Source of the DNA: a virus
Lineage: Duplodnaviria > Heunggongvirae > Uroviricota > Caudoviricetes
Length of the DNA: 41,681 nt
Direction: 5' to 3' (one strand)
IMG/VR virus record: IMGVR_UViG_2606217106_000020
Shown here: positions 15,001-18,000 of the stretch, piece after piece
Layout of the letters: each line of letters starts with the position of its first letter
How positions within the stretch are numbered: the first letter of the stretch is position 1
Made by a program: the position numbers

Positions 15001-18000
15001 TTGCTTCCACGTTGGCGGTGGTAACAGCAACGAGACGCCTGGTACGCGAGATCAGCAACGGAAAATTCCGTTACAAAATGCCTGATGTCGAAAACGGCGA
15101 TTTGAGCGCTTTATCATCGCAGAATAAGCAATCACACCATGACGCAGAAAACAGCGCGGCAGGCGATGAAATGAATCGTTTTCCGTTGGCATCAGAGAGC
15201 ACGGCAAAGGCCAGTACAGATGAGTTTATCCGAGAAGTTCCATCATTCACCGAAAAATCTGCCAGTTCGGTGATGCTTCCATCGCTGCATGCTGCCAGTC
15301 GAGAACTTCGTCGCGCCAAAAAACAGGTCCAGAAGTGGGAGCGAGTCTGCGCCGCGCTGCGGGAGCTGAACAAGCACCGGGATATTGTTCGACAGATTGT
15401 CGATTCATCCGGTCGTATTGTGTCGGAAAAGTGATTGCCGGAGGCGCTTATGGCGAAACCTTTTACACACGAACAGCGGGAAGAACTGAAGGCACGAATT
15501 ATCGGATTGGTACGCAAAAATGAACGCATGACGATATCGCAACTGGAGAGAGCGACGGGAGCAGGCTGGCATTCAGTCAGACGTTGCCTTGTGGATGTAC
15601 TGGCTTGTGGCGATTTATACATGTCCGGTAAATACGGTGTTTTTGCATCAGAACAGGTGTATCGCGTATGGCGTAAGACACCGGAGAAAACAACTGACCA
15701 GACATTGATTCGAAAGTTACCAGACGGAGAAATTCGCCGCTACGATAGACGCCTGAACATAATCTGTCGCGAGTGCCGGAATAGTGAAGTTATGCAGCGC
15801 GTGCTGGCTTTCTATCAGGGGAATTTTCAGGAGGCGGTACTGTGAGTAAATTAGCTATCAGGCTTCAATTGTCGCTGGCATTCGCATCAAAGGAGAATGA
15901 GATGACCACTTTTACAAAAGAGCAGTTAATCAGTCATGTTAGTGAAAATGTAAAGGCGATGAAATTTGCAGTAAAACAGACAGCATTCAAAAATTCTCTC
16001 GAGGCAATTGAGTTGGATTTAGCACTGGCCCTTGTTGCTCAGGCTTCGCTGGAAGCAGAGCCCGTGCTTTATATGAATCGATTTACCGGAAAGACATTCT
16101 CACTGGAAGAGCAACCCGGTGCTGATAAGGAACCGGAAATATACGTGCCGCTATATGCTGCCCCGCCAGACAGCGCCGCCATGCTTCAGGCTGGAAACTT
16201 TCGGGAAAAGAAGGGTTCGTCAACCAATAATTTTCGGGAAATCTCGGAAACGTCAACCAACCATCCGGTAACTCTGGATGGTTGGATAAGCTGTAGTGAG
16301 CGAATGCCGGATGACGGTCAGCACGTAATTATTTTATGTGATGGCGCATTCGTTCTTTATGCGCAATATCGAGACGGTGAGTTTTTTGATGTAGTCCGTG
16401 ATGGTGATGAATTTTTCGAAACACAGAGCCGCAATGTAACCGACTGGATGCCGCTACCAGAACCGCCGCAGGAGGTGCGCCAATGAACTGGCCTGAAGCA
16501 TTTGCAATTACAGGCGTTGCTATGGCTATCACTTTTTTAGTATATGTTATTTGTCGGTGGGGGTAAAAACGTTCGCCGGGATTAACACCAAAGGAGGGAA
16601 TATGTCGGATGATATATCACTGGCAATGGAAGGTGCGCTGGCTGTTATTGCTGTTGTGGGCGTTTACTGCCTGGTTGTGTTTTTGATGGATCGACTAGGG
16701 AACTGAATTCATTACGATATGGGAATTCCCATATCGGGTAAAAACGGTTTGCGGTAAAGCGAGAGTTAAGTAGAATTGCTGCGGGTGCTTGAGGCTGTCT
16801 GCCTCGGGCATGCCACCGTAAGGCAGACAGAGAAAAACCCCAGTTAACATTACGCGTCCTGCAAGACGCCTAACATTAATCTGAGGCCAATTTCATGCTA
16901 GACACATGTAGGTTAGCCTCTTACGCGCCGAAAGGCAAGGAGAAGCAGGCTATGAAGCAGCAAAAGGCGATGTTAGTCGCCCTGATCGTCATCTGTATTA
17001 CCGTCGTAGTGACGGCACTGGTAACGAGGAAAGACCTCTGCGAGGTACGAATCCGAACCGGTCAGACGGAGGTTGCTGTCTTCACAGCTTACGAACCTGA
17101 GGAGTAAGAGACCAGGCGAGGGAGAAATCCCTCGCCACCTCTGATGTGTCAGGCATCCTCAACGCACCCGCACTTAACCCGCTTCGGCGGGTTTTTTCAC
17201 TTACTGTGGTTGTGAATACGATTGGTATTAGGCTATGCTAACAACATTAGCCTGACTAATTTTGTATTGACTTGATTTTTGTTAAAGAACAGGACGGAGA
17301 AGTAAGGGTACACCCAATGAGCTACGCACTAAAAAAACACCCGCGATTGACTATTCCCCCTCGCGATAAAAGCGTTGTGGCAGCTCCGCGCCCGGCTATC
17401 GATGAAAATTGCACTCATCGTGAGCAGGTGAAAAATGCTTTCGATTTCGGTTTTTCTCGTTACGAGAAGGCAATGGAAGAACTTTCAAAAGTGTAATGAT
17501 GGGTATTGTGCTCTATGGCTGATATTGTTGAAGGAGTGCACTACCTTTCGTTTGATGATCTTACCGAAATTAATCGCCTTTTAATTGAGCTTCAAACACC
17601 AGATGAACCTGTTAGTGTGCTGAGTGTTGATAATTTAAGTTCTTCTCAGTCTCGTCCCAGCATGGTTCGATGGTATGAACAGACTAATGACATGTTTGTA
17701 CTGGCATCAGTATTGATTGAAAGTCTGATTCAGAATCATCCATTTGCTAATGCAAACAAACGAACAGCTATGATGGCTGGTTATGTCTTCTTGTTGTTGA
17801 ATGGCTATGAGTTAACAGCACCAGGCGATGAAATCGTGGAAATGGCAGAGGGACTGGCCTGCAAAACCTATACTCGAGAAGATCTCGAGAACTGGTTGTG
17901 TTATTGGTCTCGTGCGTATGACGGCCGGGAATTATGTAAAACAGGCGCAACTGTTGTTTTGTATGAAACTATCAAGCTTAAAATAGAACAGCAAAACTAA

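What the first reader, a model, noticed from the sequence alone, without database searches (positions are those of the whole stretch)
17240..18000. Antitoxin-Doc type II module in the nin region, adjacent to the hok locus and the decayed toxin locus
The 17515..18000 protein carries the Doc signature HPFANANKRTA (H-x-F-x-N-A-N-K-R) and is preceded by a 59-aa ORF in the position of an antitoxin; an inverted repeat (aggcta-N12-tagcct, about 17228-17251) upstream could be an autoregulatory operator. The small ORF does not resemble Phd, so the antitoxin family is uncertain. Together with hok and the frameshifted toxin-XRE pair, this makes three toxin-antitoxin loci within about 2 kb.
Basis: partly seen in the sequence, partly recalled or inferred. 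Interest (0 to 1): 0.5.

Follow-up and report, generated by a model that had tools for sequence, protein, structure and literature searches.

The report
Prophage Doc toxin with minimal antitoxin
An E. coli prophage carries an 841-bp insert encoding a Doc-type growth-arresting toxin and, just upstream, a 59-residue partner from an unnamed family that looks like only the toxin-binding tail of known Doc antitoxins; this is an ordinary kind of module with an undescribed antidote.

Summary
ORF 17515-18000 is a full-length Doc toxin (TIGR01550, 122 bits; motif HPFANANKR intact). RefSeq already names it. The 59-aa ORF at 17317-17496 is a real gene. It sits directly upstream of doc in all 30 related loci examined, from Enterobacterales, Orbaceae, Pseudomonas, Halomonas and two Pseudomonas phages.

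It matches no Pfam, NCBIfam, PADLOC or PDB entry, and its PHROG (2208) has no assigned function. Its last ~26 residues align end to end with the C-terminal tail of AbrB-type "doc_partner" antitoxins (hhalign P=1e-3; above all 200 shuffles). AlphaFold2 predicts one C-terminal helix (34-57) and no DNA-binding fold. I read it as a minimal antitoxin that neutralises Doc with a Phd-C-like helix. No toxicity or rescue was tested.

The pair is a discrete 841-bp cassette bounded by a 20-nt repeat of the hok terminator. An E. coli strain has the empty site.

The proposed operator repeat exists (17230-17253) but is no better than chance.

The "three TA loci in 2 kb" claim is correct: hok/sok, this pair, and a RelE-like toxin broken into three frames beside an intact HTH antitoxin.

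Solo copies of the small gene occur in other prophages. Modest interest.

The parts
17176..17195 (+). Left copy of the 20-nt direct repeat AACCCGCTTCGGCGGGTTTT. It is the intrinsic terminator hairpin at the 3' end of the hok transcript and the left boundary of the cassette.
   Evidence: the repeat finder D1: two perfect copies 841 nt apart. Terminator scan hit at 17176-17193. Junction alignment with the empty site.
17196..18036 (+). The 841-bp Doc cassette (moron). It holds an upstream region, the small gene, doc and its own terminator. Because of the repeat, the inserted segment can equally be written 17176-18016.
   Evidence: E. coli 2015C-4944 (L033) has the hok terminator directly joined to the HTH/RelE pair and lacks exactly this segment. 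Phage-database similarity to the hok locus stops at about 17197.
17223..17231 (+). TGGTATTAG, a possible extended -10 promoter element. This is inferred, not shown.
   Evidence: TGGTATTA recurs at the equivalent place upstream of the small gene in Citrobacter, Kluyvera, Izhakiella and Rosenbergiella loci and in Salmonella phage SW-37. The consensus sigma-70 scan found no site at 9 of 12 or better here.
17230..17253 (.).
   Evidence: Present in the sequence but not significant: 28% of shuffles do as well. Its right half, CATTAGCCTGA, resembles a box CAATAGCCTTGA seen after TGGTATTA in three or four relatives.
17317..17496 (+). Gene for the 59-aa putative antitoxin: MSYALKKHPRLTIPPRDKSVVAAPRPAIDENCTHREQVKNAFDFGFSRYEKAMEELSKV. 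Residues 1-33 are an extended, Pro/Arg/Lys-rich segment with the conserved motif R-L-x-I-P-P-R-D-K. Residues 34-57 are a predicted helix.
   Evidence: Upstream of doc in all 30 related loci. Differences from 15 orthologues fall 249/150/535 by codon position. PHROG 2208 over its full length. Tail similarity to doc_partner. AF2 helix 34-57, with mean pLDDT 91 and 94 for residues 41-50 and 51-59.
17515..18000 (+). doc, a 161-aa Doc-family (Fic fold) toxin and predicted EF-Tu kinase. It has a C-terminal extension of about 30 residues relative to P1 Doc.
   Evidence: TIGR01550 at 122.1 bits, Pfam Fic, PHROG 577. Best PDB relatives are E. faecalis Doc 9VZC (E=1e-12) and P1 Doc 3K33/3DD7. 262 homologues, mostly 150-166 aa among the 120 listed.
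17737..17763 (+). Codons for the Doc-type Fic motif H75-P-F-A-N-A-N-K-R83.
   Evidence: Read from the sequence. H75, F77, N79, N81, K82 and R83 are invariant in 26 relatives (regex).
18015..18036 (+). Intrinsic terminator after doc. It contains the right copy of the 20-nt repeat (18017-18036).
   Evidence: Terminator scan: 9-pair stem, UUCG loop, T-run. The same CCCGCTTCGGCGGG hairpin follows doc in Citrobacter and Xenorhabdus loci.
16783..17107 (+). Neighbour: the hok/sok type I locus. The sok model hit spans 16783-16957 and the hok CDS is 16952-17107.
   Evidence: Rfam sok at 110.3 bits. Pfam HOK_GEF at 82.6 bits. RefSeq hokD.
18054..18734 (-). Neighbour: a decayed type II pair. The HTH antitoxin (18054-18368) is intact. 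The RelE-like toxin (about 18364-18734) carries two 1-nt deletions.
   Evidence: tblastn with the intact toxin of L033 hits three different frames, while the antitoxin is 99% identical. DNA alignment. Pfam HTH_3 and PF06296.

Best explanation
This is a two-gene type II toxin-antitoxin cassette carried as a moron in a lambdoid prophage.

Shown:
- The 161-aa protein is a sequence-intact member of the Doc branch of the Fic fold.
- The 59-aa upstream gene is its constant, co-oriented, closely spaced partner.
- The pair is an 841-bp unit with its own terminator, present in some E. coli and absent from the same site in others.

Inferred:
- Both genes are transcribed from a promoter inside the cassette (possibly the extended -10-like TGGTATTAG) and end at the hairpin at 18015-18036.
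- The small protein has no globular or DNA-binding domain. Its C-terminal helix (residues about 34-57, ...QVKNAFDFGFSRYEKAMEELSKV) binds the groove of Doc, as residues 52-73 of Phd and 52-79 of E. faecalis Phd do, and keeps Doc inactive.
- The conserved extended N-terminal segment (RLxIPPRDK) adds a second contact or governs stability.
- When antitoxin supply falls, through transcription shut-off or proteolysis, free Doc phosphorylates EF-Tu and stops translation.
- The small protein probably derives from an AbrB-type doc_partner antitoxin that lost the DNA-binding half.
- The biological role is not determined. Candidates are prophage retention, or exclusion of other phages by abortive infection.
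For: - Toxin identity: TIGR01550 at 122.1 bits against a cut-off of 38.65, Pfam Fic, PHROG 577, PDB relatives 9VZC and 3K33. The motif H.F.[DN][AG]NKR is in 26 of 26 relatives.
- Pairing: a homologue of the small ORF lies 3-59 nt upstream of doc in 28 of 29 genome loci from Enterobacterales, Orbaceae, Pseudomonas and Halomonas, and in two Pseudomonas P2-like phages. The one exception (L030, Doc 38% identical) has an AbrB-type doc_partner instead.
- Only these two genes are shared by all 31 loci, window included. The next most common neighbour is in 6.
- The small ORF is a protein under purifying selection: codon-position differences are 249/150/535.
- Tail homology: hhalign of the family against doc_partner aligns the last 25-26 residues end to end, P=1e-3, score 20.9 against 200 column shuffles with mean 9.7, sd 2.1 and maximum 18.0. 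The Pseudomonas phage member gives P=1.5e-4 and hits TIGR02609 at E=3.5e-4 over profile positions 24-74. 3 of 26 members hit it.
- Structure: AF2 predicts one helix (34-57), high confidence in the last 20 residues, pTM 0.36, no fold.
- Precedent: the C-terminal 22 residues of Phd alone bind and neutralise Doc (PMC9207808). Phd-C acts as a transferable linear neutralising element (PMC10440598). Only residues 52-79 of E. faecalis Phd are ordered on Doc (PMC13034048).
- Cassette: empty site and 20-nt flanking repeat.
Against: - No experiment and no complex model supports binding.
- The tail similarity is short. hhalign probability is only 22-51%, and the window's own protein gives no TIGR02609 hit.
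- No sigma-70 consensus promoter was found in the cassette.
- There is no recognisable DNA-binding domain, so the usual autoregulation of type II modules is unexplained.
- The AF2 model of Doc was poor (pLDDT 56), so the C-terminal extension is uncharacterised.
- EF-Tu as the target is extrapolated from P1 and Salmonella Doc.
Confidence: 0.8

Rival explanations
1. The module's real job is defence against other phages by abortive infection. The small protein would be the labile sensor or antidote, and the solo copies of the small gene in other prophages would be counter-defence genes that neutralise Doc in trans. This refines the biological role and does not contradict the toxin-antitoxin mechanism.
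For: - The cassette sits in varied prophage positions typical of defence morons: next to the integrase of Pseudomonas P2-like phages, among tail genes, and in the nin region here.
- It is on no true plasmid: the one PLSDB match is a 4.09-Mb record, so plasmid addiction is not its niche.
- Three separate lineages of bona fide family members (hhalign probability at least 98%) occur without any Fic/Doc gene in prophage-like contexts.
Against: - There is no match to a Doc-based system in PADLOC.
- No paper linking this family to defence was found.
- Solo antitoxins can equally be remnants left after toxin loss, as with the neighbouring RelE/HTH pair in this very window.
Confidence: 0.3
2. The inverted repeat at 17230-17253 is an operator through which the small protein, alone or with Doc, represses its own promoter, as in classical type II autoregulation.
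For: - The repeat overlaps the putative -10 element and start region.
- Upstream regions across the family are enriched in palindromes: 7 of 28 have p<=0.05 against shuffles, with 1.4 expected (binomial 4e-4).
- Citrobacter and Kluyvera copies show a compensatory change, ATAGCC/GGCTAT to ATGGTC/GACCAT, at the same position.
Against: - In this window the repeat is at chance level (p=0.28).
- The small protein has no DNA-binding domain by Pfam, NCBIfam, PDB profile or AF2. The part of doc_partner it retains excludes the first 23 profile positions of the AbrB-type N-terminal region.
- Compensatory changes fit an RNA or DNA hairpin at least as well as a protein site.
Confidence: 0.2
3. The small ORF is not an antitoxin. 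It would be an accessory of another kind, such as a leader peptide for translational coupling, a chaperone, or an activator or targeting subunit of Doc. Doc would then be controlled in some other way.
For: - There is no direct evidence of neutralisation.
- The conserved N-terminal motif RLxIPPRDK has no known counterpart in Doc antitoxins.
- The family is unnamed in every library searched.
Against: - The amino-acid sequence, not merely the ORF, is conserved, which argues against a leader peptide.
- The tail resembles that of an established Doc-partner family, and both align up to their C-terminal ends.
- Family members persist and are conserved without doc in cis, which fits a trans-acting protein.
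- Upstream gene order and small size match type II antitoxins.
Confidence: 0.1
4. The Doc homologue is enzymatically different from P1 Doc. It might have another target, or perform AMPylation rather than phosphorylation, so the outcome would not be EF-Tu-mediated translation arrest.
For: - It is only distantly related to P1 Doc (phmmer E=1e-4).
- It has a conserved C-terminal extension of about 30 residues (W127, W131, R133, D136, L140, C141 are invariant) that P1 Doc lacks.
Against: - It carries the Doc-specific ...NKR motif variant rather than the GNGR variant of AMPylating Fic proteins (family knowledge).
- E. faecalis Doc, its closest solved relative, is described as a kinase toxin (PMC13034048).
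Confidence: 0.12

Closest known systems
Phd-Doc of phage P1 and of Salmonella Typhimurium (PDB 3K33, 3DD7; PMC9207808)
   Same: - Gene order is antitoxin then toxin.
- The toxin has the Fic fold with the H-x-F-x-(D/N)-(A/G)-N-K-R motif.
- Neutralisation is expected through a C-terminal amphipathic helix of the antitoxin. In Phd, residues 52-73 suffice.
   Different: - The small protein has no Phd/YefM N-terminal DNA-binding domain and no detectable sequence similarity to Phd.
- This Doc is 161 aa with a C-terminal extension, against 126 aa for P1 Doc, and is only remotely similar (E=1e-4).
- It is chromosomal or prophage-borne, not on plasmids.
AbrB/MazE-type 'doc_partner' antitoxins (NCBIfam TIGR02609) paired with Doc, such as the composite mazE-doc system TasA-TasB (PMC1626090) and locus L030 here
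   Same: - The last 25-30 residues are alike...Q-x-x-x-A-...-R-Y-x-x-A-x-x-E-L-(A/S)-K at the very C-terminus.
- Both sit immediately upstream of a TIGR01550 Doc.
   Different: - The first ~23 profile positions of TIGR02609, within the AbrB-type N-terminal region, are missing.
- Scores stay far below the family cut-off (20.9 against 55.9 bits; the window's own protein gives no hit).
- The N-terminal 30 residues carry a different conserved motif, RLxIPPRDK.
Enterococcus faecalis chromosomal Phd-Doc (PDB 9VZC; PMC13034048)
   Same: - Its toxin is the closest solved relative of this Doc (E=1.1e-12).
- Only the C-terminal bent helix of its antitoxin is ordered on Doc.
   Different: - EFPhd has a beta-sheet DNA-binding N-terminal domain and recognises a single palindromic operator. 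The small protein here has none.
- No chain of 9VZC, or any other antitoxin chain, appeared in the PDB searches made with the small protein.
PanA_Phd-C : Doc of Corynebacterium doosanense (PMC10440598)
   Same: It shows that the Doc-neutralising 'Phd-C' helices are a transferable linear element that works when attached to unrelated N-terminal parts. That is the architecture proposed here.
   Different: There the N-terminal part is a globular Panacea domain. Here it is a non-globular segment of about 33 residues. Isolated Phd-C needed a SUMO tag to neutralise, so the N-terminal segment here may serve stability.
PaaA2-ParE2 of E. coli O157:H7 prophage (from my own knowledge of the literature; PaaA2 is listed as an intrinsically disordered protein in PMC6705226)
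   Same: It is a short (~63 aa), largely disordered antitoxin without a DNA-binding domain, carried in a prophage.
   Different: The toxin family differs (ParE). Regulation is supplied by a third gene, paaR2. No conserved third gene accompanies the Doc pair.
FicT-FicA (class I Fic with small antitoxin, such as YhfG-Fic)
   Same: A small upstream protein of about 55-60 aa is paired with a Fic-fold enzyme.
   Different: The inhibitory motif (S/T)xxxE(G/N) is not a family feature: 2 of 67 sequences carry it, at different positions. The toxin has the Doc NKR motif, not the AMPylating GNGR motif.

Membership tests
Doc toxin (Fic/Doc superfamily; NCBIfam TIGR01550, Pfam PF02661) | Profile match above the curated cut-off over the whole domain | tested here: met
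   TIGR01550 at 122.1 bits against 38.65, covering profile 2-122 of 122. PF02661 at 44.4 bits against 24.
Doc toxin (Fic/Doc superfamily; NCBIfam TIGR01550, Pfam PF02661) | Doc-type active-site motif H-x-F-x-(D/N)-(A/G)-N-K-R | tested here: met
   H75-P-F-A-N-A-N-K-R83 (nt 17737-17763). The motif is present in 26 of 26 relatives.
Doc toxin (Fic/Doc superfamily; NCBIfam TIGR01550, Pfam PF02661) | Phosphorylates EF-Tu and arrests growth when unopposed | not testable with these tools
   This needs expression and a phospho-EF-Tu assay.
Type II toxin-antitoxin module | Two small adjacent co-oriented genes whose pairing is conserved across unrelated genomic contexts | tested here: met
   All 30 related loci keep the pair, with gaps of 3-59 nt. 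No other gene is shared by more than 6 of the 31 loci compared, window included.
Type II toxin-antitoxin module | The antitoxin protein binds and neutralises the toxin | not testable with these tools
   Support is indirect only: the tail resembles doc_partner and a C-terminal helix is predicted.
Type II toxin-antitoxin module | Autoregulation through an operator bound by the antitoxin's DNA-binding domain | tested here: inconclusive
   No DNA-binding domain was found. The repeat in the window is at chance level. Palindromes are enriched across the family's upstream regions, 7 of 28.
Phd/YefM antitoxin | Match to the Phd/YefM N-terminal domain | tested here: not met
   No Pfam or NCBIfam hit for the window protein. 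Phd/YefM is not among the Pfam or NCBIfam families hit by any of the 26 family members. No PDB hit to Phd.
AbrB-type doc_partner antitoxin (TIGR02609) | Profile match above cut-off, including the N-terminal AbrB/SpoVT domain | tested here: not met
   The window protein gives no hit. The best family member scores 20.9 bits against a cut-off of 55.9 and covers only profile positions 24-74. No PF04014 hit.
AbrB-type doc_partner antitoxin (TIGR02609) | C-terminal Doc-facing tail ...RY(K/R)NAL.ELAK | tested here: met
   hhalign gives an end-to-end alignment of the last 25-30 residues, P=1e-3 and 1.5e-4, above all 200 column shuffles.
FicA-type (class I) Fic antitoxin | Inhibitory helix motif (S/T)xxxE(G/N) | tested here: not met
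   Absent from the window protein. It occurs in 2 of 67 family sequences, at non-equivalent positions.
Phage moron | A discrete insert present or absent at the same site between related prophages | tested here: met
   The empty site in E. coli 2015C-4944 differs by exactly the 841 bp between the 20-nt repeats.
Phage moron | Own terminator and own promoter | tested here: inconclusive
   A terminator is present at 18015-18036. No consensus promoter was found. There is only a conserved TGGTATTA extended -10-like element.
Known anti-phage defence system (PADLOC-DB) | Match to a defence-system model | tested here: not met
   Doc gives only weak hits (E>=2e-3) to candidate families PDC-S23 and PDC-S05. 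The small protein gives none.

The most novel reading that the evidence does not exclude
The 59-aa protein would found an undescribed family of 'tail-only' antitoxins: a Doc-binding helix plus a short conserved leader, derived from AbrB-type doc_partner by loss of the DNA-binding half. The module would therefore run without classical antitoxin-mediated autoregulation. Prophages would use it to exclude competing phages, and the solo copies found in other prophages (no doc nearby, own terminator, early or late-operon positions) would be counter-defence genes that disarm Doc in trans.
Probability: 0.2. Interest if true: 0.6.

Novelty: new variant of a known kind. Interest (0 to 1): 0.38.

Why it matters
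Doc toxins are well understood, and this one is already named in RefSeq, so the module as such is ordinary. Three things are new.

- Its partner belongs to a compact family that no library names. There are 39 hits (E<=0.001) in a 1.84-billion-protein library of 50%-identity cluster representatives, nearly all stand-alone proteins of about 40-70 residues. It seems to consist of little more than the toxin-binding helix. If confirmed, it is a natural example of the 'linear neutralising element' model of antitoxin evolution and a natural peptide-sized Doc inhibitor. That is relevant to work on Phd-mimetic peptides.
- The clean empty-site comparison shows how such cassettes move between prophages at a shared terminator hairpin.
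- The orphan copies in other prophages give a testable lead on phage counter-defence against Doc.

About 2% of complete E. coli genomes (120 of 5,426), including O104:H4 outbreak strains, carry the cassette.

Tried and rejected
- AF2 of Doc with a 26-sequence alignment gave pLDDT 56 and pTM 0.38. It was too poor for fold search or for interpreting the C-terminal extension, and was not used.
- Foldseek of the small-protein model against PDB returned nothing, as expected for a single helix.
- PDB sequence and profile searches with the small protein gave only a chance-level hit to ribosomal protein S25 (E about 0.3).
- Pfam, NCBIfam and PADLOC gave no hit for the window's small protein.
- A FicA-type inhibitory motif was considered and rejected.
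- A third, regulator gene in the manner of PaaR2 or omega was considered and rejected. No conserved neighbour exists.
- Plasmid carriage was examined. The only PLSDB hit is a 4.09-Mb record filed as a plasmid.
- Literature searches for the accessions, for Doc in lambdoid prophages and for Doc in phage defence found nothing on this family.
- A tblastn of orphan P0153 against the phage collection and a blastn of its locus against E. coli genomes both found nothing, so its host is unknown.
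Full report
**Context.** The window is a lambdoid prophage of E. coli. Segment 17100-18100 is 100% identical to the chromosome of strain cM8a. At 80% coverage or more, it is present in 120 of 5,426 complete E. coli genomes, including O104:H4 strains. In RefSeq the region reads: replication genes, DUF1627, DUF977, DUF551, hokD, a 'hypothetical protein', a 'death-on-curing family toxin', an HTH protein, a partial RelE/ParE toxin, an antirepressor-like gene, then NinB and NinE.

**Observation.** The toxin ORF runs from ATG 17515 to the stop at 18000 (161 aa). 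The upstream ORF runs from ATG 17317 to the stop at 17496 (59 aa). The two are in the same frame and 18 nt apart.
- The toxin scores 122.1 bits on NCBIfam TIGR01550 DOC_P1 (cut-off 38.65), 44.4 bits on Pfam Fic, and E=1e-50 on PHROG 577 'Doc-like toxin'.
- Its closest solved relatives are Enterococcus faecalis Doc (9VZC, E=1.1e-12) and P1 Doc (3K33 and 3DD7, E about 1e-4 to 1e-3).
- The motif HPFANANKR is residues 75-83. H.F.[DN][AG]NKR is present in all 26 aligned relatives.
- The inverted repeat AGGCTA-N12-TAGCCT is at 17230-17253.

**The small ORF is a real gene and Doc's constant partner.** It has no hit in Pfam, NCBIfam, PADLOC or PDB. It does match PHROG 2208, a 59-position family of unknown function, over its full length.
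- A word-indexed search of 5.8 billion proteins found 17 clusters, all at least 66% identical to it.
- An exhaustive profile search of 1.84 billion representatives found 39 hits. Nearly all are stand-alone proteins of about 40-70 residues, and none is fused to another domain.
- A genome scan with the Doc alignment returned 29 loci from Serratia, Providencia, Yersinia, Citrobacter, Morganella, Xenorhabdus, Hafnia, Kluyvera, Proteus, Arsenophonus, Gilliamella and other Orbaceae, Pseudomonas, Stutzerimonas and Halomonas.
- In 28 of those loci a homologue of the small ORF ends 3-59 nt before doc. The same holds in two Pseudomonas P2-like phages, next to the integrase.
- Across the 31 loci, the window included, only these two genes are shared by all. 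The next most frequent neighbour occurs in 6.
- Differences between the window and 15 orthologues fall 249/150/535 on codon positions 1/2/3, which indicates purifying selection on a protein.
- Conserved features are an N-terminal R-L-x-I-P-P-R-D-K and a C-terminal Q-V-x-N-A-F-x-F-G-F-x-R-Y-E-K-A-M-E-E-L-S-K-V.

**What kind of antitoxin it is.** The single exception among the 29 loci (L030, Doc 38% identical) has an AbrB-type antitoxin upstream that meets TIGR02609 'doc_partner'. Its tail...RYKNALHELAK, resembles ...RYEKAMEELSKV.
- I collected that family and aligned it. I then compared profiles. hhalign aligns the last 25-26 residues of both families end to end, with P=1e-3 and score 20.9.
- Two hundred column shuffles of the doc_partner alignment gave a mean score of 9.7, sd 2.1 and maximum 18.0. 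The reversed alignment scored 13.8.
- The Pseudomonas phage member gives P=1.5e-4 over 30 columns. It hits TIGR02609 itself at E=3.5e-4, but only over profile positions 24-74 and far below the cut-off. Three of 26 members do so.
- AlphaFold2 with a 41-sequence alignment predicts one helix, residues 34-57. Mean pLDDT is 91 and 94 for residues 41-50 and 51-59. An extended N-terminal segment precedes it, and there is no globular fold (pTM 0.36).
- The FicA inhibitory motif is absent.

The best reading is a minimal antitoxin. It keeps the Doc-binding C-terminal helix and has lost the DNA-binding half of an AbrB-type ancestor. Published work makes this plausible. Residues 52-73 of Phd suffice to bind Doc at picomolar affinity and to rescue growth (PMC9207808). 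Only residues 52-79 of E. faecalis Phd are ordered on Doc (PMC13034048). The 'Phd-C' element neutralises Doc when moved onto unrelated carriers (PMC10440598).

**The module is a discrete mobile cassette.** A perfect 20-nt direct repeat, AACCCGCTTCGGCGGGTTTT, lies at 17176-17195 and at 18017-18036, 841 nt apart. Both copies are intrinsic terminator hairpins.
- E. coli 2015C-4944 has the same hok locus joined directly to the same HTH/RelE pair through a single copy of the hairpin. It lacks exactly the intervening 841 bp.
- Similarity of phage-database hok loci stops at about 17197.
- The same CCCGCTTCGGCGGG hairpin follows doc in Citrobacter and Xenorhabdus. The cassette therefore probably brought its terminator, and exchange occurred at the shared hairpin.
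- Elsewhere the pair sits among tail genes: after a tail-tube/Big_2 protein and DUF6246, or before minor tail proteins M and L. It also sits near ORF6N antirepressors, beside an IS3-type transposase, and beside P2-type integrases.
- It is on no true plasmid. The one PLSDB match is a 4.09-Mb record.

**Promoter and operator.** The consensus scan found no sigma-70 site of 9/12 or better in 17196-17316.
- A motif TGGTATTA (17223-17230 here), resembling an extended -10, recurs upstream of the small gene in five other loci.
- Across 28 non-redundant upstream regions, 7 have a repeat with p<=0.05, against 1.4 expected (binomial 4e-4).
- The Citrobacter and Kluyvera copies differ by a compensatory change at the same position (ATAGCC/GGCTAT against ATGGTC/GACCAT).

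Some structured element upstream is therefore likely in the family. What reads it is unknown, because the small protein has no DNA-binding domain. An RNA or DNA hairpin is as good an explanation as a protein operator.

**Neighbours.**
- hok/sok is confirmed: Rfam sok at 110 bits (16783-16957) and HOK_GEF at 82.6 bits.
- On the minus strand the HTH antitoxin (18054-18368) is 99% identical to the intact allele. The RelE-like toxin matches the intact 123-aa protein in three different frames, through two 1-nt deletions.
- Three toxin-antitoxin loci in 2 kb is therefore correct. One of them is decayed to an orphan antitoxin.

**Orphan copies.** Of seven distant family members whose contigs I looked up, four are paired with a Fic/Doc gene. 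In one of these a second Fic gene follows.
- Three lineages are solo. P0169 lies between an endonuclease I gene and the holin, downstream of Q, has its own terminator, and shows no doc remnant by tblastn.
- P0153 lies after DUF1627 and DUF1187 genes in a lambdoid early region.
- P0165 is in an AlpA/YafO context.
- All three are secure family members, with hhalign probability of at least 98%.
- They show that the small protein is kept without doc in cis. This fits a trans-acting antidote and raises the untested idea of phage counter-defence. Remnants after toxin loss are the plain alternative.

**Verdict.** This is a genuine, sequence-intact Doc toxin-antitoxin cassette. The toxin is already annotated. 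The antitoxin belongs to an unnamed minimal family whose assignment rests on synteny, tail similarity and predicted structure, not on experiment. I rate it a new variant of a known kind, of modest interest.

Noticed in passing
L035:2501-2665, L036:2501-2665, L037:2501-2665; L038:2001-2153 (also L039, L040); L042:2001-2150: Three lineages of the small-protein family occur alone in prophage-like contigs with no Fic/Doc gene nearby. One lies between an endonuclease I gene and the holin and has its own terminator. One follows DUF1627/DUF1187 genes in a lambdoid early region. One is in an AlpA/YafO context. They may be orphan antidotes (counter-defence) or remnants.
   Followed up: partly
window 18821-19019 (+), upstream of 19073-19738: Rfam finds isrK (74 bits, 18834-18908), C4 antisense RNA (72.5 bits, 18935-19019) and its a1/b1 target (47 bits, 18821-18873). 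They lie just upstream of an ORF6N/P22AR-C antirepressor-like gene. This looks like a P1/P7-style antisense-controlled antirepressor unit inside a lambdoid prophage.
   Followed up: no
window 18364-18734 (-) and 18054-18368 (-): The RelE-like (PF06296) toxin is split over three frames by two 1-nt deletions relative to the intact allele of E. coli 2015C-4944. Its HTH antitoxin is intact and 99% identical, so it is an orphaned antitoxin next to the Doc cassette.
   Followed up: yes
L034:1192-1920: In one metagenomic contig the small gene and doc are followed by a second Fic-domain gene (242 aa, motif HCFHNGNKR). This suggests tandem Fic/Doc toxins behind one antitoxin.
   Followed up: no
L006:~2710-2755 versus L014:~2710-2755: The upstream palindrome at the same position differs by a compensatory double change in both arms: ATAGCC...GGCTAT in Citrobacter and ATGGTC...GACCAT in Kluyvera. 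A second hairpin, GGATGT-loop-ACATCC, keeps its stem while its loop varies.
   Followed up: partly
L044:1501-2131 (Salmonella phage SW-37, CP051275.1): This isolated Salmonella phage carries the pair, but both genes match in two or three frames. The cause is either decay or sequencing errors. The record has no annotation.
   Followed up: partly
window 16715-16736: A perfect 22-nt palindrome, CGATATGGGAATTCCCATATCG, centred on an EcoRI site, lies just upstream of the hok/sok locus.
   Followed up: no
window 17116-17197 (+): The 3' end of the hok transcript gives a sub-threshold isrK-like Rfam hit (31 bits, E=3e-4). Its terminator is the same 20-mer that ends the doc cassette.
   Followed up: no
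window 16603-16706 (+) and about 16483-16566 (+): Two very small ORFs encoding hydrophobic peptides lie between the DUF551 gene and hok/sok. One is MSDDISLAMEGALAVIAVVGVYCLVVFLMDRLGN, which RefSeq calls hypothetical (WP_001278450.1).
   Followed up: no
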